In this document: in pieces, positions 1 through 30,305 of the stretch | Position numbering within the stretch: the stretch's first letter is position 1 | How the letters are laid out: each line of letters opens with the position of its first letter | IMG/VR virus record: IMGVR_UViG_3300020045_013871 | Coordinates: 1-33,578 of that record | Origin: a virus | Lineage: Duplodnaviria; Caudoviricetes | Strand: one strand, 5' to 3' | DNA length: 33,578 nucleotides | Notes under the pieces: model-generated | The model's database searches: none | What the model saw: only the letters and a program-made list of their open reading frames with translations | Told to the model about the DNA's origin: nothing | Program-made: the position numbers and the translations under genes

Positions 1-83
1 GCATACTAACCCGCTGGAAAACTGATGGTAGACAGCCGGTGGTCAAAAAGACTAACGGAAGGGTGGTTCACAAAATCGTATGA
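1..83 (+). CDS. C-terminal fragment of a DnaD-domain replication initiator (5' partial)
   Basis: Frame from 3 reads (G)ILTRWKTDGRQPVVKKTNGRVVHKIV*, matching the DnaD-type YxxGILxxW motif; its TGA (81-83) overlaps the helicase ATG (ATGA). Confidence 0.6.
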   Translation, partial: ILTRWKTDGRQPVVKKTNGRVVHKIV

Positions 84-430
84 ATGACAACCTCTTTCTT
101 CACCCACCGGCTGAGAGTACCACCCGCTACGTTCAATGGTATGAAAAGCTGCTTAACACCCCTGGCATTGATTATGGTTGTGTAATGGATAAGCGGGTTA
201 TCCCCTTGCATCGGGGTGACGTTATGGCAGTCCTGGCCCGGCCCGGTCACGGCAAATCCTCTTTTATGGCGTACATGGCAAAAAGGGAAGCCAACAAGAT
301 CATTGATCGAAAAACCGAAAAGGATGAATGTGTAATCTATGTTTCCTGGGAACAACCAATTGAGGAACTGGAAGCATTTTTTCAAAGCGGTGCGAATTAC
401 AATTCAACTGATTTGGCCTGGGGCCGGGTA
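80..430 (+). pseudogene. DnaB-like replicative helicase, N-terminal part only (truncated at junction; ORF runs on to 511)
   Basis: Walker A ARPGHGKS and H1a-like VIYVSWEQ; helicase-like sequence stops at DLAWGRV, after which the ORF reads the antisense strand of the 397-654 gene. Confidence 0.75.
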
Positions 431-6281: not shown

Positions 6282-7088
6282 CTAACTATGATACTGCGCG
6301 ATATAACGCGGATTGTAATACCCAGCAGGTAGATACTCTTGCAAATCTTTTTTGATATAATGTTTGACGCCCAACCGGTTGACCAGTTCTACGATTCGCA
6401 ACGTGTAGTCCTGCCAATCGGTTGTATAGGTCATCGGTAAATAGTTGGCCCGGCCAACTTTGTACAGGTCAACAAATTTATGAGTCTCCCGGATAATCTG
6501 CAAACTACTGTCAGTATCAAGTGTGGGTTCCAGGCTGACCCACGTAAAAATACCGGCGTTGTGGAATTTTTCAAGGGTGGCAATCCGGTCGCCCGGCAAT
6601 GCCGCGCCGCGCTCCCACTTGAGGCTGAAGGCGTCATCCAGGCTGGTCAGGGTCGAAGCAAACGAATCACGGCCAGGCCGGAACATATCCAGATCACGCA
6701 ATGCCCGACTGCCACCTTTGGTCAAGGTACTAAAAGCCAAGCCGTGAATTTTGAGCACTTGCAGCACTTGGCGGGTGAGGCTGTTGTCACCGGGGTGAAA
6801 CGGGTCGGTAGTGAAAGACAACATTACCTGTTCAGTAGACCCCAACGCTTGATACTTCCTGGCGTCTTTAGTGAGCAATTCCAGATAGTTAGGCCGGGGA
6901 AATGCGCCAGCGTCAAACTCCGGGCGGGTGATTTTAAGAACGCGGGGCACATAGCAGTAGACGCATTTGTGCCCGCAGCCCCGGTAAGGGTTAGCCGCCA
7001 GCGGCGCATACTCGCCAGCTTGCCCGGCTGGGGCATAAATATAGCTGCATCCTTTGACACTGCGGCCATCAGAATTAAATATTACCAT
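6282..7088 (-). CDS. Radical SAM protein (spore photoproduct lyase-like)
   Basis: NPYRGCGHKCVYCY (CxxxCxxC), FTTDPF, LTKG and WVSLEP motifs. Confidence 0.85.
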   Translation of the reverse strand: MVIFNSDGRSVKGCSYIYAPAGQAGEYAPLAANPYRGCGHKCVYCYVPRVLKITRPEFDAGAFPRPNYLELLTKDARKYQALGSTEQVMLSFTTDPFHPGDNSLTRQVLQVLKIHGLAFSTLTKGGSRALRDLDMFRPGRDSFASTLTSLDDAFSLKWERGAALPGDRIATLEKFHNAGIFTWVSLEPTLDTDSSLQIIRETHKFVDLYKVGRANYLPMTYTTDWQDYTLRIVELVNRLGVKHYIKKDLQEYLPAGYYNPRYIAQYHS

Positions 7089-9187: not shown

Positions 9188-9757
9188 ATGAAGATAAATT
9201 TTTTAGACGGCAGCACAAAAGATTTTACCAATTTGCGCGGGGCCAACCTGAGCGGGGCCGACCTGGGCTGGGCCAACCTGAGCGGGGCCAACCTGAGCGG
9301 GGCCAACCTGAGCGGGGCTAACCTGCACGGGGCCAACCTGAACGGGGCCGACCTGAGCGGGGCCGACCTGAGCGGGGCTAACCTGTGCGGGGCCATCCTG
9401 CGCGGGGCTGACCTGCGCGAGGCCATCCTGAGCTGGGCCGACCTGAGCTGGGCCAACCTGCGCGAGGCTAACCTGTGCAGGGCCGACCTGAGCTGGGCCA
9501 ACCTGCGCGAGGCCAACCTGTGCGGGGCCATCCTGAGCGGCGTCCGTGGCCTCGTGCGGATTTCCTGGACTGGATACGAAATGATAATCCAGGCTAAGAC
9601 AACCACCATCGGTTGCCATACCCTGCCAAATACCGAGTGGCTGGCAATGGATACTGAGACCGCCGTAACGATGGGTATCAAATGGGAACACTTTGAGTTG
9701 TACCACGCCTTTTTTGCGGCGGCAATCAAGGCACTAAAAAAGACGCCCGCCCGGTGA
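9188..9757 (+). CDS. Pentapeptide repeat protein
   Basis: About 20 A(N/D)Lxx repeats encoded by 15-bp DNA repeats; C-terminal IGC...W domain. Confidence 0.92.
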
Positions 9758-9875
9758 CAAACACCGAATATGAATTGCTGGATGAAATCCCGGCAAAAAT
9801 AGCAGTTGATGTTGAGAATTGAGGCACTAGAGACCAAAGTGGCTGATACCAGACCATTATGAAAGTGAGGAAAAT

Positions 9876-10112
9876 ATGAAGATAAAATTTTTAGATGGTA
9901 CGGAAAAAGAATTTACCAATTTGCGCGGGGCTAACCTGCGCTGGGCCAACCTGCGCGAGGCTGACCTGAGCGAGGTTGACCTGAGCGAGGCCAACCTGAG
10001 CTGGGCCAACCTGCGCGAGGCCAACCTGAGCTGGGCCAACCTGCGCGAGGCCAAAATTATACAAACCCAAATTTCGGTTGTAATTGCCGGCTTGGGCTTA
10101 GAAATAGTGTAA
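9876..10112 (+). CDS. Short pentapeptide repeat protein (paralog of 9188-9757)
   Basis: [21 protein letters not shown] vs [21 protein letters not shown]; about 8 repeats. Confidence 0.85.
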
Positions 10113-19567: not shown

Positions 19568-21885
19568 CAGCTAACCATTCCGCCGGGCAGTAGATAGCGC
19601 GGCGTTACGTAGGTTTTTATCTGCATAGTCGAGCTTTGCACGTATGTTAAGCCGCTGTCATACATTGCCAAAAAGAATAGATAATTATATTGGCCCGGCG
19701 TAAGCTGGATGTCCCCGTTTTTAATCAGGTGATACCGCTCACTTAGTGTGCTTGTGTCAAAAACATAAGCGGCGCTATCAACTATCGCCGGTTGAGTGGC
19801 GTTAATCAGCCAGGCCCCGGTAGCACTTTGACTGATTTGCATTGGCTCAGGAATTAACCAGAGATACAGCAAGCCAAACCCGTAACTAGTACCGGTTGTC
19901 TCAAGACCGTAAGCAAACGAAGTGACCGGCGTTTGATGACGACTGATAAACAGATCACCACAATCCATAATGGCATAATTGGCATTGGCCCCAACGGTGA
20001 TATAAGCGCCATAAACTTTGCCCGCCGCCGTGTTGCTCAGATTGTAAAACGGCCTGAGCTTGACCCCGCTAGAGGTGACAATAGAGGCAACTACTTTGTA
20101 TCGCCCCGGCAAAACATCGGTGACAATAAATGTACCCGGCGAAAATGTTTGAGTACCGGCATAGATCGTATTGACCAGACCATAGTAATAATAGAAATTG
20201 TAATCAGCCGGGGCAAACGTGGCTTGAGACGGTCTGATGCCAACGTAAACTATTTTGTCAGCGCCGATCTGTGACCCTAAATCTAGCGGATTAAACCTGA
20301 TTGTCAGTTTGCTCGGCACGTCCCCGGCGATGCCGCCAAGCACCAGGTAATTGAGAATTGTACCAGCGCCATTATCATAATTATCAACAATGTTGTCACC
20401 ATCGGGTGACAGGCTGTAGGGAGGTGGGCCCACTTTGCCGCCCCTGTTTTTAATCTGGTACTCCGCCGCATAGAGTGACCCCGCTTGCGTGGCCGTGATC
20501 GCCTCGTCAAATATCCGCCAGCCGTCGAGTATCACGTCAACCCCGTCTATTGTCCCGGTTGCCGGACAACCCAGGGCGATTGTACCGCCATCGGTCATAG
20601 TGGCCGCCGCGGTTACGCTGGCTATCTGCGAGCCGTTGGCATAGAGGCGCAAAGTGGTGCTGTCCTGAACCAAAATCACACTGACATTAGCACCATTGGC
20701 AATGCTAAAGCTGCTGCTGTTGGTCGTATAGGTTGTACCACTTACGATTTTGGTAATCGTAAAGCGGGTATTGGAGGCATCATAGATAATCCTAATCCTG
20801 TTGGATGCGTTGGCGTAGTAGTCGAAGATATCTTTATTCCCACTGGCCCAGGTTGCGTTGAGGCTAAACCAACCCGTTACCGCGAATTGGCCGGTTAGCC
20901 CGCTTGAGGTATAAGCCGGGTAGTGCAGTTTAGAAGATGAGCCGGAGGCGACTAGCACCCCCTTAGCGTGATCGCTCACCGCCCCGGCTGCGGTTGCTAC
21001 CTGTTGAGGTAGCCCCTCCGGGTAAGCGCTGCAAGTGAGATTGAGAATAGCCTTTTCGATATTGCCGCTGGCTAGCATCCCTGATTTGTGCAGGCCGCCC
21101 GGCCATTGGGGAGCGTTACCGCTAAAAACCTCATAATAGTGGGATAGCTGCCCGAATGTCGGTGTTGGTAGGGATGACAGGTTATCAGCCCAACGATACT
21201 CAAGCCAAACCCGCTCCCCAATGCCTCGAACATTGTACAAATTGGCCTCAAGCAGGAATTGGTTTATTTGCCGCTGTAACTCAAACAGGCCCATCATAGA
21301 GCCGCTAACCAGGTCATAGTTTACCGTTAGTTTGGAATTGCCCCGGCTTTCGGCAAACTTTTTCTCCCCCTCAAACCTGATACTCTCGCCGCTCCATAGT
21401 TCAATCTGCGGGCTTGAGTTGGGAGTAAAGCCTTCACTGGATAAATAGATATGACCGTCTGCCCTATAAGCCAGGTCAAAAGTCCGGCTTGGGTTGCGCT
21501 TATCGTTACCGTAAATTAATCTTAACACGTGTCCTGCCTCTACTCCAATAGCCAGGAGTGAGACGGTTACATTAACCGAATCCCGTAATGTCGCCCTGGC
21601 CAGCCAAATAAATAGCGCTGAAATTATTCCTATTATCGAATCCGTAACCGTATCAACGGCGGCAGGTCTGGCAGTTGTAGGCACTGATACGGTGACAATC
21701 TCAGAGATTGCCCAGGCTAATCTTAATGATAACGCAATGCCGGGTGCGGATACGGTCACAATCTCAGAGGCGGTGGCGCTGATTATAGCCGCCAATACCG
21801 GCGTGGGTAGTGACTCAATCCTGGTTACAGATAGCGGTTGTTGTAATTGTCTCATCGTTAGTTGAGCCATTTGATGATATGCCAA
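19567..21885 (-). CDS. Distal-tail-like protein with internal LamG domain (start uncertain)
   Basis: LamG motif LRLYANGSQIA...LGC...LDGWRIFDEAIT; GDVP and C-terminal VTPRYL; N-terminal SEIVTVS repeats. Confidence 0.65.
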   Translation of the reverse strand: MAYHQMAQLTMRQLQQPLSVTRIESLPTPVLAAIISATASEIVTVSAPGIALSLRLAWAISEIVTVSVPTTARPAAVDTVTDSIIGIISALFIWLARATLRDSVNVTVSLLAIGVEAGHVLRLIYGNDKRNPSRTFDLAYRADGHIYLSSEGFTPNSSPQIELWSGESIRFEGEKKFAESRGNSKLTVNYDLVSGSMMGLFELQRQINQFLLEANLYNVRGIGERVWLEYRWADNLSSLPTPTFGQLSHYYEVFSGNAPQWPGGLHKSGMLASGNIEKAILNLTCSAYPEGLPQQVATAAGAVSDHAKGVLVASGSSSKLHYPAYTSSGLTGQFAVTGWFSLNATWASGNKDIFDYYANASNRIRIIYDASNTRFTITKIVSGTTYTTNSSSFSIANGANVSVILVQDSTTLRLYANGSQIASVTAAATMTDGGTIALGCPATGTIDGVDVILDGWRIFDEAITATQAGSLYAAEYQIKNRGGKVGPPPYSLSPDGDNIVDNYDNGAGTILNYLVLGGIAGDVPSKLTIRFNPLDLGSQIGADKIVYVGIRPSQATFAPADYNFYYYYGLVNTIYAGTQTFSPGTFIVTDVLPGRYKVVASIVTSSGVKLRPFYNLSNTAAGKVYGAYITVGANANYAIMDCGDLFISRHQTPVTSFAYGLETTGTSYGFGLLYLWLIPEPMQISQSATGAWLINATQPAIVDSAAYVFDTSTLSERYHLIKNGDIQLTPGQYNYLFFLAMYDSGLTYVQSSTMQIKTYVTPRYLLPGGMVS

Positions 21886-24388: not shown

Positions 24389-24769
24389 CTAGCTAAACGT
24401 CAGTGCAATGTCAACCACCCAGGTTTGCCCGGCTGATTTAGTCCCTTGTGCCGATACCACCCTGAGTAGATTGTCCGCCGCATCGCTGTTGCCACTTGCG
24501 ACGGTAAACTCGTTCCAGTCATAGTTGCCCGTCCCGGTTCCAAACGAGGCCCGGAAAGTGACCGTCTGCCCACTGATAATCGGGTAAGTGGCGGACATAG
24601 CGACATAAGCTTTATTGGATGACGCCTGCAAGCCAGTCTGTGAGGCGGCGAATCCGGTTGTACTATCGCCAACTCCAATATAGGCGTTAGCGTTACTGAA
24701 CGCCGTCTCCGCTCCCCCGGTCAACAGGTTTAGGAGCGAGGTGATTCCTTCGTTTAACAGGTCTGCCAT
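24389..24769 (-). CDS. Small tail-collar/fibre-type structural protein
   Basis: LLNEG...YIGVGDSTT...ASQTGL...TFRASF...WNEF...GTKS...LTFS. Confidence 0.75.
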   Translation of the reverse strand: MADLLNEGITSLLNLLTGGAETAFSNANAYIGVGDSTTGFAASQTGLQASSNKAYVAMSATYPIISGQTVTFRASFGTGTGNYDWNEFTVASGNSDAADNLLRVVSAQGTKSAGQTWVVDIALTFS

Positions 24770-24884
24770 TAGGTTTCCTCAATTCGATGAGTTGAACTTC
24801 CTCAGTTGTTTCAAAAGGTTGTTCTTCTCCGTCGTTATATTTTCGTATGGTAATCGTTACCGTGGCCTTGCCGGTGGTAATCAT
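24693..24884 (-). CDS. Hypothetical protein, possibly the split N-terminal part of 24389-24769
   Basis: Coupled to the DALR gene (TAATG); TITIRKY...PFE segment. Confidence 0.45.
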   Translation of the reverse strand: MITTGKATVTITIRKYNDGEEQPFETTEEVQLIELRKPNGRPVKRRNHLAPKPVDRGSGDGVQ

Positions 24885-25210
24885 TAGTAACCCCTTAACT
24901 TACTCAGATCAGCATAGCCCCTAGTTAACCCTTTGATGCCTTGCAACAAGGCCAGCCGGTTAGTCCTGGTTTTCTTATCCTTGACCATTACCTTCGTCTT
25001 GTCAAAAAACCGGTCTATGGGCCGTTCCAGGCTCCTTAGCGCGTCGATAACCGCTTCAGGGTTATCGGCTATCATCTCTACTGCCTGTTGGTAGGCCCGG
25101 TATAATTCCAACTCGCCGGGCCGCCGTAACAGCGCCGGGTTAATCGAGTAGTCGCCATCTGATTTGCTAACCAATCTCGCACATCTGGAATAAGCTTTGA
25201 GCCAGGTCAT
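24884..25210 (-). CDS. Stand-alone DALR anticodon-binding domain derived from the glycyl-tRNA synthetase beta subunit
   Basis: AYSRCARL...INPALL...ELELY...PIDRFFD..KVM..D...RTNRLALL...ADLSKL.GY matches the GlyRS C-terminal pattern FFDxVxVMxxDxxxRxNRLALL. Confidence 0.85.
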   Translation of the reverse strand: MTWLKAYSRCARLVSKSDGDYSINPALLRRPGELELYRAYQQAVEMIADNPEAVIDALRSLERPIDRFFDKTKVMVKDKKTRTNRLALLQGIKGLTRGYADLSKLRGY

Positions 25211-27318
25211 AATTCACTAGCACCCCCTACCCGGCGCTGGGCTGCATTTGGTACGGAGGTCGCGGGGGGTGGGTTCATTGAACCAATTGAGCCGCCGGCG
25301 TTCTGTGCGTTCTGGTTTACCCGTTCTATCAAGCCGGCCATAATGGTGAAGCGCTGATTCAGAATATCTATGGACGGTAATGCCGCATCAAAAGCGCCTT
25401 TGATTTTAACCCCGGCTGTTTCAGTCGTACCGGCCAGGGTTGTGACGTGCGTTTCTGTTTCAGCGGTCGCCATTCCAACATCACCAGCGGCCACCTGCAC
25501 CATCCCCACCGCCGCCGTGACACCCTCCGCGCCTAGTTCCTCTTTGACCTGCTGAATCAATTGCTCTTTGATTTGCTGCTGCTGTAGTTGTTGCCTTACC
25601 TGGTTTTTAATCAGCTCAACATCCCACAGTTGTGGAACTAACCCCTGTTGGAATTGGGTTAGCGCTGCCGTGGCTGCCGCTTGGAGTTGCCCACCGTCGC
25701 CCGACGTAATCGCGTTGGCTATAGGCTGCCAAAAAGTCTGGCCCTGAAATTGGCTTTGTAGTTGGGTTAGCCACTCTGAGCCAAACCCGCCAGTGGCGAC
25801 GGTTGCCAACCGCCGCGCCCATTCGTCAGCGTGCTGCGCTCCGCCGGCGGCGTCTGGACTCCATACCTCATTTAGCGACGGTTGTAATTTACTCTCGATA
25901 ATGCCGGCAATGTCGTCCGCTGCTTTGGTAAAACTCTGGGTCATTGCCCGACCCGCGGCGGTTGCGGCCTTGATCTGTTCTTGCTCGGTCTCTTTGGCCT
26001 GGTCGCGAGTAAATTGTTCTGATAGTTCAACGGTCTTGGTGCGACCCAGGGCCATTTGCCGGTAGGCGTCCGACTGGCGGTTGGTTTCAGGGTTAAAAGC
26101 GTACGCAGACGCCGCAGCGGCCGCGTCCGCTTGCGCTTGCGCTAGTTCTGCGGTTTTTTGAATGGCCCCAACAGATGCCATACTCATCGCATTAAGCGAG
26201 CTTACCCATTCGCCCGATGTTACAACAGCATCAGCCATTGTATTTTTTAGATTGTCGAATTCCTGTTCAGTTAAGTCCAGTTCGCCAGCCAGAAAGACAT
26301 TAGATTGAGCCACCTTATCTATGGCCGCCTGATACTCGGCATGCGTATCGACATTTGATAAAAGCGCTTGCTGGAATGCCCCTTGGTCTTGGGCGGCGGC
26401 ATCAGTAGCCGCTTCTAATTCGTCATAACTCTGAGAAGTTAAAATTGTCTGGGCCGCACTTGCCGCCATTGCTGATTCGTGCGCTTGAATAGCCGGTATT
26501 TGCTCACCTAAAACAACCTGCCAGGCTTTGGCCCCCTCGGTTAATTTGTTTAGGCCAGCGGTATAAATCTCTGTTGCCCCAGTCGCCTGATTCAGGCTAT
26601 TTAGCAGGCTGCCAACCGAGGCCATAAAATTACCCTGAGCGGCGGCGGCAGTTGCGGCGGCTACGCTCTGTTCTGAAAGAGCGTTTTTATATTTATTTGA
26701 CTGTTCAATAAGGATTTGTTTAAGGGCCAGTGATTTTGCTTCTTCGCTTGATAGGTTGGTTGTCGCCTCTATTTCATCTTGCTTGGCCTTAACCATCTGA
26801 GCCGTTAGCCCAAAGTTATTAAACAGTACCGGCGAACCACTAGACAACAACCGCACAAACAATTCTTGACTTGCCCCGGCGCTGGCGAAAACATTACTAA
26901 GTACAGTGCCCGCCGCCGCAAGGTCGGCTGCCTCTTGTGCGTTTTTAGCCAGTCCAGCGCCAAACAAAACCGATTGAGCTGCGGCCAGGCTTTGATCAGT
27001 TGCCATCCCCTTTGTGGCTTCCCGTCCTAATTCAAGCGCCTCGTTGTAGTCAGCTATCCCCGTGGCCGATACTTTTAGCGCATTGATTGCGTCCTCTTGC
27101 ATCCGCCCGGCTTCGCTGGCGGCAGACGAGAAATCTATCAGCGCTTTGGTACTCAGGCCCAGGCCAAGTAAACCCAGGGCATTATTGAGGCTGCCAATAG
27201 ATATAGCCGACCCCTTGCCTTTTTTCTCAAGGGCTTCCAAGTCGCGTTCTATATCCTTGATGCCGCGTCCCTGGGCGGTTGCCTTTATGATTAGTTCGAG
27301 TTCTTGCCTTGTTGCCAT
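25207..27318 (-). CDS. Tail tape measure protein
   Basis: 703 aa, Ala/Gln-rich and helical; ELELIIKA N-terminus; follows the tail tube gene. Confidence 0.85.
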   Translation of the reverse strand: MATRQELELIIKATAQGRGIKDIERDLEALEKKGKGSAISIGSLNNALGLLGLGLSTKALIDFSSAASEAGRMQEDAINALKVSATGIADYNEALELGREATKGMATDQSLAAAQSVLFGAGLAKNAQEAADLAAAGTVLSNVFASAGASQELFVRLLSSGSPVLFNNFGLTAQMVKAKQDEIEATTNLSSEEAKSLALKQILIEQSNKYKNALSEQSVAAATAAAAQGNFMASVGSLLNSLNQATGATEIYTAGLNKLTEGAKAWQVVLGEQIPAIQAHESAMAASAAQTILTSQSYDELEAATDAAAQDQGAFQQALLSNVDTHAEYQAAIDKVAQSNVFLAGELDLTEQEFDNLKNTMADAVVTSGEWVSSLNAMSMASVGAIQKTAELAQAQADAAAAASAYAFNPETNRQSDAYRQMALGRTKTVELSEQFTRDQAKETEQEQIKAATAAGRAMTQSFTKAADDIAGIIESKLQPSLNEVWSPDAAGGAQHADEWARRLATVATGGFGSEWLTQLQSQFQGQTFWQPIANAITSGDGGQLQAAATAALTQFQQGLVPQLWDVELIKNQVRQQLQQQQIKEQLIQQVKEELGAEGVTAAVGMVQVAAGDVGMATAETETHVTTLAGTTETAGVKIKGAFDAALPSIDILNQRFTIMAGLIERVNQNAQNAGGSIGSMNPPPATSVPNAAQRRVGGASEL

Positions 27319-28317
27319 TTATGGAAGTGCCGTCAACTCATTAACTACGATAAACCGACCCGCCGTGGCCGCCGTCGCATTGTACCGGCCCAGGAGCGTG
27401 GCCTTGATGATGTCGTTGCCGTCCTGGTCGCCGATCTTATCAAACTTCTGCCAACGCCCAACCAGGTCAATGATAAAGCGCTTGGTGCTGTAGGTTGTGC
27501 CAGGCGTTCCAAGAGCAGAGCCGGTGAAGTCAATCCGTACCGCCCGCGCGGTCTGGTTACGCCAGGCCGTCTTTTCTGCGACCGCTGAAGCGTCGTGCTC
27601 AAAGGTGATGTCCAGCGTCACTTCCATTCCCTGCCGTTTTACGAATGAAAAATAGAGCTGCCCATCCCCGGTAAATACCGGCGTTAAGCCAGTCGTTACC
27701 TTCAAGTCCATTTCAAGGAACGTGTTAGTAAGTTGAGCCGTAGCCGGGTAGGTGCTGGTCGCGTTGACGTACAACCTCCCCCGGCTAAATAGGATGTCCT
27801 CAATCGTGGGGATTGAAATAGCGCCGGTGTAACTGGTATTTGTTACCTGCCGCCCCCGCCAGGTCGCGCTCATCATCAGGGCCTCACCGGCTTTGCCCTT
27901 GATGCCGAACTCAGTACAAATGGCGTATTCCATTTCTTCGGCCTGGTTGTCGTCCCCGGCTTCAATGGTATACGTTTTCCAATCGCCCTGTGTAGCCGTG
28001 GGGATGGTGTAGGTATAGATGTAGTCCGAGCCGGTTCCGTCTTGCGCCGGGGTCTGGCTATCTATACCGCTTTCCAGGATATAGGGGATTTGTTCAAAGG
28101 TAGCTTCTATATCGTTAAACTGGATTTCACCGGCCAGCTTGGGGATATAGTTGCGGTCTAGCGGGTTGGCTAAACCTACGTCTTCTTCCGGGAAAACAAC
28201 TTCCCGTGTATCTTCCATTGTACCCAGGCCGCGCCATAAAGCCGTGGCTGCTACCGCTGTGCCCGCCACGGTTTCCAGGCCCATTTGAATTTTACGAAGT
28301 GCTTTAATACCTGCCAT
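27319..28317 (-). CDS. Major tail tube protein
   Basis: QMGLETVAGT N-terminus, YTIEAG, C-terminal VVNELTALP; position after the terminator gene. Confidence 0.85.
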   Translation of the reverse strand: MAGIKALRKIQMGLETVAGTAVAATALWRGLGTMEDTREVVFPEEDVGLANPLDRNYIPKLAGEIQFNDIEATFEQIPYILESGIDSQTPAQDGTGSDYIYTYTIPTATQGDWKTYTIEAGDDNQAEEMEYAICTEFGIKGKAGEALMMSATWRGRQVTNTSYTGAISIPTIEDILFSRGRLYVNATSTYPATAQLTNTFLEMDLKVTTGLTPVFTGDGQLYFSFVKRQGMEVTLDITFEHDASAVAEKTAWRNQTARAVRIDFTGSALGTPGTTYSTKRFIIDLVGRWQKFDKIGDQDGNDIIKATLLGRYNATAATAGRFIVVNELTALP

Positions 28318-28773: not shown

Positions 28774-29012
28774 CAGCCTAGCCGCTCCGATGATTTGATT
28801 TCTTCTTTAACCGATATACCCAGGGTTGGGGGCCTGCCCTCGTTTTGTGGGGGAGGCGTTATCATCGCCTCAAGTACCTTGATGGCCTCTTTGATCGGCT
28901 TGCGCTGTTCCATCAAATCAGCTACCCCAAACATACTGGTACTAAGCTGGATTGATTCAAGTTTGCGCTGTAACTCCATTATCGCGATTGCCAGGGCTTG
29001 ATCGTTTGTCAT
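28773..29012 (-). CDS. Hypothetical protein
   Basis: Coupled on both sides; C-terminal ISVKEEIKSSE. Confidence 0.6.
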   Translation of the reverse strand: MTNDQALAIAIMELQRKLESIQLSTSMFGVADLMEQRKPIKEAIKVLEAMITPPPQNEGRPPTLGISVKEEIKSSERLG

Positions 29013-29794
29013 GGGTAGCTGCTCCCATCCGGGTTAATGTGCCGGCAAAAAATAGAGGTGTCAACCAAAAAAGGATACTCTTTGTCAGCAAACTCCGTCC
29101 AGCCGGTTTTTTTGAAATAGTCCTCTTTCATCACCCTGGTACACCAGGCCAGGTCGCTTGTCCCCTGCGTGGTGTTGTACTGGCCGCTTTCCGGGTCGTA
29201 CCATAATGTGGCCGGGGTATTAAATACTCGCCTGGTCACAGTGCCTCTTAGGTTGTACTCCGGGCTGTCATCCCACATCGCCTTGATGAGCGAGTAGTGG
29301 ATTAAGAGGCAGCCGGTGGGCACTCCATCCGCCCAAACCTTGTCGCCCATCTGGAAATCAACGTGGACGCTTGTTCCCCGGCCCCGAAAAATTAACGGTT
29401 CGCTTGGCTGCGCCCGGCTAAAATAAAGGCCGCTAACAACCGGCGTCTTTTCGTCGCGCATATACTGATTAAATTTGATAAAGGCGTCCGGTGGTAAAAT
29501 AACATCGTGCTCCAAAAGTAACAGCCATTCAAAATCCTTGTCAATCATCTCTTTGATTATCAGGTTTTGCGCGTCTGCTACCTGATACCGAAGTGGGATA
29601 TACGAGTTAAAATATTCGAGCATCTGCACTTGTGACCAGTTCATTGGGATAATTTGGCCGTACCGAGCCTGCACCCACTCTATTCTTACTAGCCCCGTTG
29701 TAGCTGTGCCAATCAAAAGCCGGTTGACATAACCGGGGTCGCCTGAGTCCTTCACGATTGTGCGGTAGGCCCGCACCGGCGTGGTTTTACTCAT
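29009..29794 (-). CDS. GT-A fold (family 2-like) glycosyltransferase
   Basis: ADAQNLII...WLLLLEHDVILPPD...VVSGLYF...TGCLLI...SDLAWC...VDTSIFCRH. Confidence 0.8.
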   Translation of the reverse strand: MSKTTPVRAYRTIVKDSGDPGYVNRLLIGTATTGLVRIEWVQARYGQIIPMNWSQVQMLEYFNSYIPLRYQVADAQNLIIKEMIDKDFEWLLLLEHDVILPPDAFIKFNQYMRDEKTPVVSGLYFSRAQPSEPLIFRGRGTSVHVDFQMGDKVWADGVPTGCLLIHYSLIKAMWDDSPEYNLRGTVTRRVFNTPATLWYDPESGQYNTTQGTSDLAWCTRVMKEDYFKKTGWTEFADKEYPFLVDTSIFCRHINPDGSSYP

Positions 29795-30305
29795 AATAGG
29801 ATTTGTCCTCTCTCCGTTTCTGTAAAAGCACTTCCATATTTCCGGCGCAATCCCAGGACAGATGGATTATTTTCCAGGGTTTGGGCCGGTAGATTTTGTA
29901 CAAATACCCCTGTGTGTTTGGCTCCAGCGGGTCAAAGTAAGCCCACGTTACCTCGTTGCAAAAATTGATATGGGTCGGGTCTTGGTACATCCCCGGTGAC
30001 GTGGCGTATGGCATAGACAGGGCCAGTTGCCCCTCGACTTTTAGCACCCGCCAGGCTTCATTCATCCAATTGATAAAGCCAAACCGGGCCGGGTTGACGT
30101 GTTCCACCACGTGTGAGGCCATCGCCCGGATAACGCAATCGTCCGGTAAAGGCCAGGGAAAGACTTCAAAATCGTGAACTATGTCAACCGTGGGTAAGTC
30201 CCTGACATCCATCCCCACAAAATTGGGTTGCTTGTTGTAACCGCACCCAATGTCTAACTGAATCCCGTTATTTTGTTGTAAAAGTTCCGTTATGGGTTGT
30301 CGCAT
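29787..30305 (-). CDS. Class I SAM-dependent methyltransferase
   Basis: LDIGCG...GMD...DIVHD..ASHVVEH...EAWRVLK..G...DPTH. Confidence 0.88.
   Translation of the reverse strand: MRQPITELLQQNNGIQLDIGCGYNKQPNFVGMDVRDLPTVDIVHDFEVFPWPLPDDCVIRAMASHVVEHVNPARFGFINWMNEAWRVLKVEGQLALSMPYATSPGMYQDPTHINFCNEVTWAYFDPLEPNTQGYLYKIYRPKPWKIIHLSWDCAGNMEVLLQKRREDKSYYE

What the first reader, a model, noticed from the sequence alone, without database searches (positions are those of the whole stretch)
24884..25210. Captured glycyl-tRNA synthetase anticodon-binding (DALR) domain as a stand-alone gene in the tail operon
Seen: a 108-aa ORF coupled to the tape measure gene (ATGA) and to the next gene (TAATG), with the GlyRS-beta C-terminal signature. 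Positions I recall as acidic or neutral in host enzymes are basic here (FFDKTKVMVKDKKTR, LRGY). Known: this region of bacterial GlyRS contacts the tRNA-Gly anticodon arm. Inference: a repurposed RNA-binding protein that may shield tRNA-Gly from anticodon nucleases, act as a decoy, or modulate late translation. The ADLSKLxG(F/Y) ending resembles Chloroflexota enzymes, hinting at the host.
Basis: partly seen in the sequence, partly recalled or inferred. Interest (0 to 1): 0.72.

Follow-up and report, generated by a model that had tools for sequence, protein, structure and literature searches.

The report
Phage stand-alone tRNA-Gly anticodon reader
A phage gene among the tail genes encodes only the last 108 residues of a bacterial glycyl-tRNA synthetase (the part that reads the tRNA anticodon), keeps most anticodon-contact residues and has a more positively charged binding loop than any cellular relative examined, so it likely binds tRNA on its own and would possibly shield it from tRNA-cutting defences, but no second copy was found.

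Summary
Confirmed, on the minus strand. 25210-24884 encodes a 108-aa GlyRS-beta anticodon-binding bundle (Pfam DALR_1 E 2e-8; fold match to GlyRS), overlapping both neighbouring genes. It keeps R9, R12, F69, V74 and M75, the anticodon contacts of solved complexes. The contact loop carries +6 charge; 239 cellular homologs reach at most +1, and K73 occurs in 0 of 239. Neutral simulations rarely give this (P at most 0.0035). Codon usage is phage-like and DNA identity to hosts is about 50%, which argues against a chimera.

Against: it is a singleton. No viral homolog was found in IMG/VR, INPHARED or 94 related tail loci. The donor may be unsampled, and the contig looks rearranged (no tail chaperones, an inverted piece). 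Nearest relatives are Chloroflexota-type fused enzymes (at most 50% identity).

Best reading: a late-expressed tRNA anticodon-loop binder, possibly a nuclease shield; binding and purpose are untested. Eight literature searches found no such phage protein. This scan earlier noted stand-alone IleRS and LysRS anticodon modules in other phages (unchecked notes).

The parts
24884..25210 (-). 108-aa stand-alone core of the GlyRS-beta anticodon-binding domain (P0001)
   Evidence: Pfam DALR_1, NCBIfam glyS 576-684, AlphaFold model pLDDT 84, all-helical, Foldseek TM 0.75-0.85 to GlyRS chains
25175..25186 (-). Codons R9 to R12: R9 equals E. coli R585 / rice R965 (C36 contact); R12 equals rice R968 (A38 contact)
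   Evidence: Alignments read against contact lists in PMC10164559 and PMC9908026; R9 in 224 of 225 homologs
24956..25024 (-). Residues 63-85, the anticodon-pocket loop: F69, V74, M75 kept; K71, K73, K77, K79, K80; net +6
   Evidence: K73 replaces the residue that stacks on base 34 in the rice enzyme (F1033)
25221..25228 (-). Purine-rich Shine-Dalgarno-like site 10 nt before the ATG, inside the end of the 703-aa gene
   Evidence: Read from the sequence; function inferred
24891..24897 (-). Shine-Dalgarno-like site for the next ORF, lying in codons L105-R106-G107
   Evidence: Read from the sequence; function inferred
25207..27318 (-). 703-aa probable tape measure protein, starting directly after the probable tail tube gene with no chaperone genes between
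   Evidence: Position; Atlas look-alikes; no family-library hit at the usual cut-offs
24693..24884 (-). 63-aa ORF coupled to the DALR stop; possibly the detached N-terminal piece of the 126-aa gene
   Evidence: BLASTP to the intact PhiF1 homolog not significant
24389..24769 (-). 126-aa phage protein (phrog_23653, profile positions 42-168 of 168)
   Evidence: 6 phage records in INPHARED

Best explanation
The gene is a phage copy of the C-terminal helical bundle of a bacterial glycyl-tRNA synthetase, placed in the tail operon with overlaps to both neighbours; its product likely binds tRNA anticodon loops on its own late in infection and would most plausibly cap them against anticodon-cutting defence nucleases. 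Shown: domain identity, clean gene boundaries, retained contact residues, a lysine-rich contact loop. Inferred step 1: co-translation with the tail genes (from the overlaps and SD-like sites). Inferred step 2: R9 and the F69/T72/V74/M75 backbone pocket still read C35-C36, as in tRNA-Gly. Inferred step 3: the added lysines grip the phosphate backbone and make up for the lost acceptor and elbow contacts, while K73 changes the contact at base 34 and may widen specificity. Inferred step 4 (weakest): fast-exchanging binding covers the loop where anticodon nucleases cut, sustaining late translation. My odds: selected RNA binder about 0.55; shielding as its purpose about 0.25.
For: The ORF starts at about E. 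coli residue 577, next to the cut used to delete this part experimentally (residues 1-575; PMC8464048), so the captured piece is the whole core bundle; the model folds at pLDDT 84. Of 9 mapped contact positions, 5 are identical to the rice enzyme (R9, R12, F69, V74, M75), 3 are conservative or seen in other enzymes (L13, Y108; T72 as in L. plantarum) and 1 is unique (K73). 28 of 33 conserved columns are kept, while identity to the nearest homolog is 48% against at least 54% for every one of 74 host sequences. Neutral simulations from 31 host genes give P(keep at least 28) at most 0.009 and P(loop at least +6) at most 0.003; scan-corrected P for the loop shift is 0.002. With 223 donors and a GC-to-AT bias, the joint event was 0 of 4000 in all 12 settings. 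The charge outside the loop (+2) is within the host range, so the shift is local. Codon usage fits the phage (log-likelihood -1.19 against -1.37 for the host table). Defence nucleases cut in this loop, including tRNA-Gly(UCC) (retron IX preprint; DARNA preprint).
Against: No second copy: 1 member on 1 contig; none in INPHARED, IMG/VR scans or 94 related tail loci. Conservation alone does not prove selection in the phage: with 20 or fewer neutral changes from an unsampled donor, P(keep at least 18 of 21) is 0.4-0.7, and the terminal branch is ordinary (0.44 against a median of 0.32). Whole-protein charge is not significant in the neutral simulation (P 0.03-0.07). R15, basic in 218 of 233 homologs, is lost. 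Even full-length E. coli GlyRS forms only a small complex peak with tRNA, and loses it without the elbow-binding domain, so an isolated domain may bind poorly. A cap on the anticodon would also compete with charging and decoding, and covering one tRNA family would not stop promiscuous nucleases. The window holds no tRNA genes or Rfam RNAs and shows signs of rearrangement.
Confidence: 0.35

Rival explanations
1. Passenger: the 3' end of a glyQS gene from an unsampled host was picked up during a rearrangement of the tail region, stayed open and serves no selected function.
For: Singleton. It sits at the edge of a block that 48 of 49 relatives lack: their tape measure is followed within 150 nt by the next large ORF. 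The same block holds a possibly split gene and an inverted piece. Ordinary branch length. Retention of conserved columns is compatible with a recent capture.
Against: Start at the domain boundary, overlaps on both sides and SD-like sites; phage-like codons and about 50% DNA identity to the 7 nearest host genes; a loop charge and K73 seen in none of 239 cellular sequences and rarely made by drift.
Confidence: 0.25
2. Translation brake: the protein binds tRNA-Gly and competes with the host GlyRS and the ribosome, acting as a toxin, a timing device or an exclusion factor.
For: It uses the same surface that the synthetase needs; synthetase binding melts the anticodon loop (PMC10164559). Higher affinity from added lysines fits an inhibitor as well as a shield.
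Against: It is coupled to structural genes that need glycine (8.2% Gly in 17 phage genes scored), and no promoter-like site stands just upstream that would allow separate expression.
Confidence: 0.12
3. Generic basic nucleic-acid or tail-assembly protein: the bundle was repurposed as a virion or assembly factor, perhaps standing in for the missing tail assembly chaperones.
For: Location beside the tape measure gene. The window has no room for and no HMM hit to the chaperone pair, whereas 68 of 69 relatives leave at least 361 nt there and 55 of 69 hit the HMMs. pI 9.8.
Against: Surface RNA-contact residues (R9, R12, terminal GY) are kept, which a chaperone would not need. Relative L014 also lacks the chaperones and has no DALR gene. 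The window is an incomplete genome, so chaperones may lie outside it.
Confidence: 0.13
4. Decoy: it mimics the GlyRS surface to soak up a host sensor or toxin that recognises the synthetase.
For: Fold and most conserved surface are intact.
Against: A mimic should keep the host's surface charge, yet the loop has moved from about -2 to +6. I know of no defence that senses GlyRS (own knowledge; none appeared in the listings).
Confidence: 0.08
5. Assembly chimera: a host read was joined into the viral contig.
For: Single contig, no reads available to check; an inverted piece lies 3 kb away.
Against: A chimera would look like a host gene and would not supply a start codon, SD-like site and overlaps on both sides; codon usage and charge are unlike sampled hosts.
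Confidence: 0.05

Closest known systems
Anticodon-binding domain of bacterial alpha2beta2 / fused (alpha-beta)2 GlyRS (T. daxensis 7LU4, rice plastid 7XJY/7XOF, E. coli 7YSE; Pfam DALR_1)
   Same: Fold (TM 0.75-0.85), R9/R12/F69/V74/M75 contacts, C-terminal D-L-S-x-L-x-G-aromatic ending of the fused type
   Different: No catalytic, HD, B1-B3 domains and none of the first two ABD helices (E. coli 541-575); phage-encoded; loop +6; K73 and S15 unseen in cellular homologs
Phage tRNAs that evade PARIS and retron tRNA nucleases (PMC11464382, PMC11555353; search listing and start of abstract only)
   Same: Proposed purpose: keep translation going against anticodon nucleases
   Different: Those supply replacement RNAs; this would be a protein covering host tRNA. 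No tRNA gene in this window
Free-standing synthetase-derived domains in cells, such as ProXp-ala trans-editing domains (PMC10164551, listing only) and Trbp111 (recalled)
   Same: A synthetase module encoded alone and acting on tRNA
   Different: Different folds; editing or elbow binding rather than anticodon reading; cellular; conserved families rather than a singleton
Stand-alone IleRS zinc finger and LysRS-I helix cage in phages
   Same: Phage gene made of an anticodon-reading module only
   Different: Reported as large families near tRNA or RNA-repair genes; this one is unrelated in sequence origin, alone, and in a tail operon

Membership tests
DALR_1 / GlyRS-beta anticodon-binding domain | Score above the Pfam gathering threshold | tested here: met
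   34.8 bits against 22.3
DALR_1 / GlyRS-beta anticodon-binding domain | All-alpha bundle matching GlyRS better than ArgRS | tested here: met
   Foldseek ranks 1-10 GlyRS-type chains, TM 0.75-0.85; ArgRS 0.57-0.65; NCBIfam glyS 1e-19 against ArgRS 0.074
DALR_1 / GlyRS-beta anticodon-binding domain | C36-reading Arg and the F-x-x-V-x-V-M pocket for C35 | tested here: met
   R9, F69, V74, M75 kept; V72T also in L. plantarum
DALR_1 / GlyRS-beta anticodon-binding domain | Hydrophobic residue stacking on base 34 | tested here: not met
   K73; L, M or F in 238 of 239 homologs
DALR_1 / GlyRS-beta anticodon-binding domain | Binds the tRNA-Gly anticodon loop | not testable with these tools
   Needs a binding assay
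Glycyl-tRNA synthetase (enzyme) | Catalytic alpha domain and beta-subunit body | tested here: not met
   108 aa only, in-frame stops upstream; no other GlyRS family hit among 44 window ORFs scanned; 70 bits against a glyS cut-off of 300
Conserved phage gene family | Homologs in other phage genomes | tested here: not met
   None
Tail assembly chaperone (G/GT type) | Position between tube and tape measure; similarity to relatives' chaperones | tested here: not met
   Lies downstream of the tape measure; no hit to two chaperone HMMs built from 36 and 25 relatives
Anti-defence protein against tRNA nucleases | Protects tRNA or rescues plating | not testable with these tools
   Needs cleavage-protection and plating assays

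The most novel reading that the evidence does not exclude
Phages counter tRNA-cutting immunity with protein caps cut out of host synthetases: this GlyRS bundle, made basic and loosened at base 34, covers anticodon loops during late expression, a counter-defence distinct from phage-encoded tRNAs and reinvented from different synthetases.
Probability: 0.2. Interest if true: 0.85.

Novelty: new variant of a known kind. Interest (0 to 1): 0.5.

Why it matters
Many recently described defences stop phages by cutting tRNA anticodon loops, and the counter-measure described in the papers I saw is a phage tRNA. A protein cap taken from the host's own synthetase would be a second strategy. The protein is also a natural experiment on whether the GlyRS anticodon domain can bind tRNA alone: it is small, has a defined host-like control, and differs by a few lysines, so one binding assay settles the main question. 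If it does not bind, the finding is a curious orphan capture.

Tried and rejected
Stand-alone homologs: the two IMG/VR hits are 20-codon matches that fell to E 0.06 and missed the domain HMM; rejected. Scans of viral contigs with an alignment (79 candidate stretches) and with P0214 (12 stretches) confirmed none. Short database homologs: 19 were looked up. Fourteen are on contigs under 6 kb or have no contig length. P0238 and P0227 cluster with longer members, so they are fragments. P0065/P0214 (54 and 16 kb contigs) and P0244 (65 kb) have acidic host-type loops, and P0065 and P0214 differ in their first residues as frameshifted pieces would; their DNA context could not be read, so real stand-alone copies are not excluded. 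In 301 genomes of the class of G001 the six shortest frames examined end at contig edges; 113 matches were not listed. Close phage relatives: none by tape measure or the 657-aa downstream gene; the best tube relatives are 59% identical. Fusion to the tape measure by frameshift: two in-frame stops upstream and no slippery heptamer; rejected. Separate promoter or terminator: scan counts at chance level. Flanking repeats: nothing beyond short chance pairs. Sequencing runs: none was listed. Fold search against viral structures gave no result. A careful tree did not finish; a quick tree of 80 of 204 de-duplicated rows was used. No complex prediction was run: the tool does not take RNA. The ESM Atlas gave only DALR clusters, bacterial or mostly bacterial.

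Full report
Observation. The ORF reads on the minus strand from 25210 to 24884 and gives 108 residues. Its start overlaps the stop of a 703-aa gene by 4 nt, its stop overlaps the start of a 63-aa ORF by 1 nt, an SD-like purine run lies 10 nt upstream, and two in-frame stops lie just before the ATG. Such overlaps are the rule in this operon, so the gene is built like its neighbours. It scores above the Pfam DALR_1 cut-off, matches positions 576-684 of the glyS model, and its best solved relative is 7LU4, which PMC10464925 identifies as Thermanaerothrix daxensis GlyRS (passages read). The AlphaFold model (7-row alignment, pLDDT 84) is all-helical and matches GlyRS chains at TM 0.75-0.85, ahead of ArgRS.

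Context. The window is a whole virus record of 33,578 bases that breaks off in a probable helicase and a probable capsid gene, so it is incomplete. Neck, adaptor, primase and nuclease genes hit PHROGs. 'Tail tube', 'tape measure' and 'distal tail' are my labels from position; the tape measure label has Atlas look-alikes only. I collected 94 loci (91 after removing three repeats of the same contig; many are still near-duplicates) by the tube protein. None has a DALR hit. In 48 of 49 loci where the tape measure end is visible, the next large ORF starts within 150 nt; in 68 of 69 where its start is visible, at least 361 nt separate it from the tube, and 55 of 69 hit chaperone HMMs. The window has a gap of 0 and no chaperone hit. 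The DALR gene therefore opens a block of about 3.6 kb that relatives lack. That block also holds a possibly split gene and ends in an inverted repeat-protein fragment. The contig is unusual, and no reads were listed to check it.

Relatives. The protein is a cluster of one. Longer homologs are all GlyRS, 57 of 890 candidates, best 49%, many of them fused enzymes of about 1000 aa with Anaerolineae or Chloroflexota names where named. In the class of G001 (titled Ardenticatenales; class Anaerolineae by my recall) 261 of 301 genomes match, best 50%. The search of 1.84 billion representatives gave 1474 hits, best 50%. No phage copy was found in INPHARED, in three IMG/VR scans or in five whole relative records. 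A few short host-type pieces on long contigs could not be placed. A quick tree of 80 rows and 110 columns puts the protein at the base of the GF-ending group with SH-aLRT 83 and an ordinary branch. A Chloroflexota-type donor is likely but not shown; the host evidence from the tube is 3 of 7 titled contigs and 15 of 401 genomes of that phylum, with no control phylum.

Contact residues. From passages of PMC10164559 and PMC9908026, mapped through the alignments: R9 is the C36-reading Arg; F69, T72, V74 and M75 are the backbone pocket for C35; R12 and Y108 correspond to the A38 contacts; L13 to a stacking residue; K73 to the Phe that stacks on base 34 in the rice enzyme. All but K73 are identical, conservative or seen in another enzyme. 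The start falls at about E. coli residue 577, beside the 575 cut that removes this part (PMC8464048, passages). Supplements of these papers were not read; their alignments might show further natural variants at position 73.

Charge. Net charge is +8 against -12 to +2 in 74 GF-ending homologs and a maximum of +3 in 223; pI is 9.8 against a host median of 4.9 and maximum of 9.3. The shift is local: residues 63-85 carry +6 against at most +1 in 239 homologs, and the rest of the protein is within the host range. The window 63-85 was chosen after seeing the data; a scan over all 23-residue windows gives P 0.002. One conserved basic residue, R15, is lost.

Selection. dN/dS cannot be computed from one copy. 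The protein keeps 28 of 33 conserved columns (hosts keep 27-33) at 48% identity to its nearest homolog, lower than any host's nearest neighbour (minimum 54%). Neutral mutation of 31 host genes to that distance keeps at least 28 columns in at most 0.9% of runs and gives the loop charge in at most 0.3%. This assumes the donor is as well sampled as other hosts. With a wider panel and few changes, the conservation test loses its force (P 0.4-0.7 at 20 changes or fewer), but the loop charge stays at P at most 0.0035 and the joint event was never seen in 12 settings of 4000 runs. Codon usage is nearer the phage than the host table, and DNA identity to seven nearest host genes is 47-53%. I read this as moderate evidence for a gene shaped by selection in the phage, resting mostly on the loop.

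Mechanism. Most likely the protein is made with the tail proteins and binds tRNA anticodon loops, reading C35-C36 through the retained pocket and holding on through the new lysines. The purpose is open. Shielding is my first choice because late translation is what anticodon nucleases stop, and they cut in this loop (retron IX, including tRNA-Gly(UCC), passages of bioRxiv 10.64898/2026.07.14.737667; DARNA, passages of 10.64898/2026.02.22.705581). Against it: both nucleases are promiscuous, a cap would compete with charging and decoding, and the intact E. coli enzyme binds tRNA weakly in gel filtration. Rivals are a functionless passenger (0.25), a generic or assembly protein (0.13), a translation brake (0.12), a decoy (0.08) and a chimera (0.05).

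Novelty. It is a member of the GlyRS anticodon-domain family by sequence and fold, with one contact position changed; it is not a synthetase and not a member of any phage family tested. Eight paper searches (listings only, except the six papers read in passages) showed no phage-encoded stand-alone GlyRS anticodon domain; the library lacks most subscription journals. Earlier notes of this scan report stand-alone IleRS and LysRS-I anticodon modules in other phages and a displaced GlyRS tail in a bacterium; I did not check them and they are not support.

Verdict. A real, cleanly bounded capture with a striking local remodelling, but a singleton in an odd contig with no functional data. Interest 0.5; new variant of a known kind.

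Noticed in passing
window 27318-27319 (tube stop / tape measure start): No tail assembly chaperone genes between the probable tube and tape measure genes, and none elsewhere in the window by two HMMs; 68 of 69 relatives leave at least 361 nt there. Relative L014 leaves 148 nt and also has no hit.
   Followed up: partly
window about 21545-21850: The plus strand reads as a piece of the repeat found in the 721-aa minus-strand gene (tblastx E 8e-6, opposite orientation). It seems to cut off the LamG-like end of the 820-aa ORF and to replace the start of the probable distal tail gene: an inversion, natural or from assembly.
   Followed up: partly
window 24389-24884: The 63-aa and 126-aa ORFs overlap by 77 nt and may be two halves of one phrog_23653 gene; the intact PhiF1 ORF44 has a similar-looking N-terminus by eye, but BLASTP is not significant.
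   Followed up: partly
L014:10297-10494: The closest relative for the distal tail gene also has a small ORF (65 aa, with a CxxC motif) right after its tape measure gene; no DALR similarity.
   Followed up: no
proteins P0065, P0214, P0244: Short GlyRS anticodon-domain proteins on 54, 16 and 65 kb contigs with host-type acidic loops; probably frameshifted host genes, context unread.
   Followed up: partly
window 29009-30305: A methyltransferase-like gene (phrog_6636) and a weakly glycosyltransferase-like gene sit between the neck and tail terminator genes, as in several relatives: possible virion modification module.
   Followed up: no
window 9188-10112: Two pentapeptide-repeat ORFs on the plus strand, 83% identical over 199 nt, a local duplication.
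   Followed up: no
window 6282-7088: Radical SAM gene of the PA0069 / Rv2578c neighbourhood, below family cut-offs.
   Followed up: no
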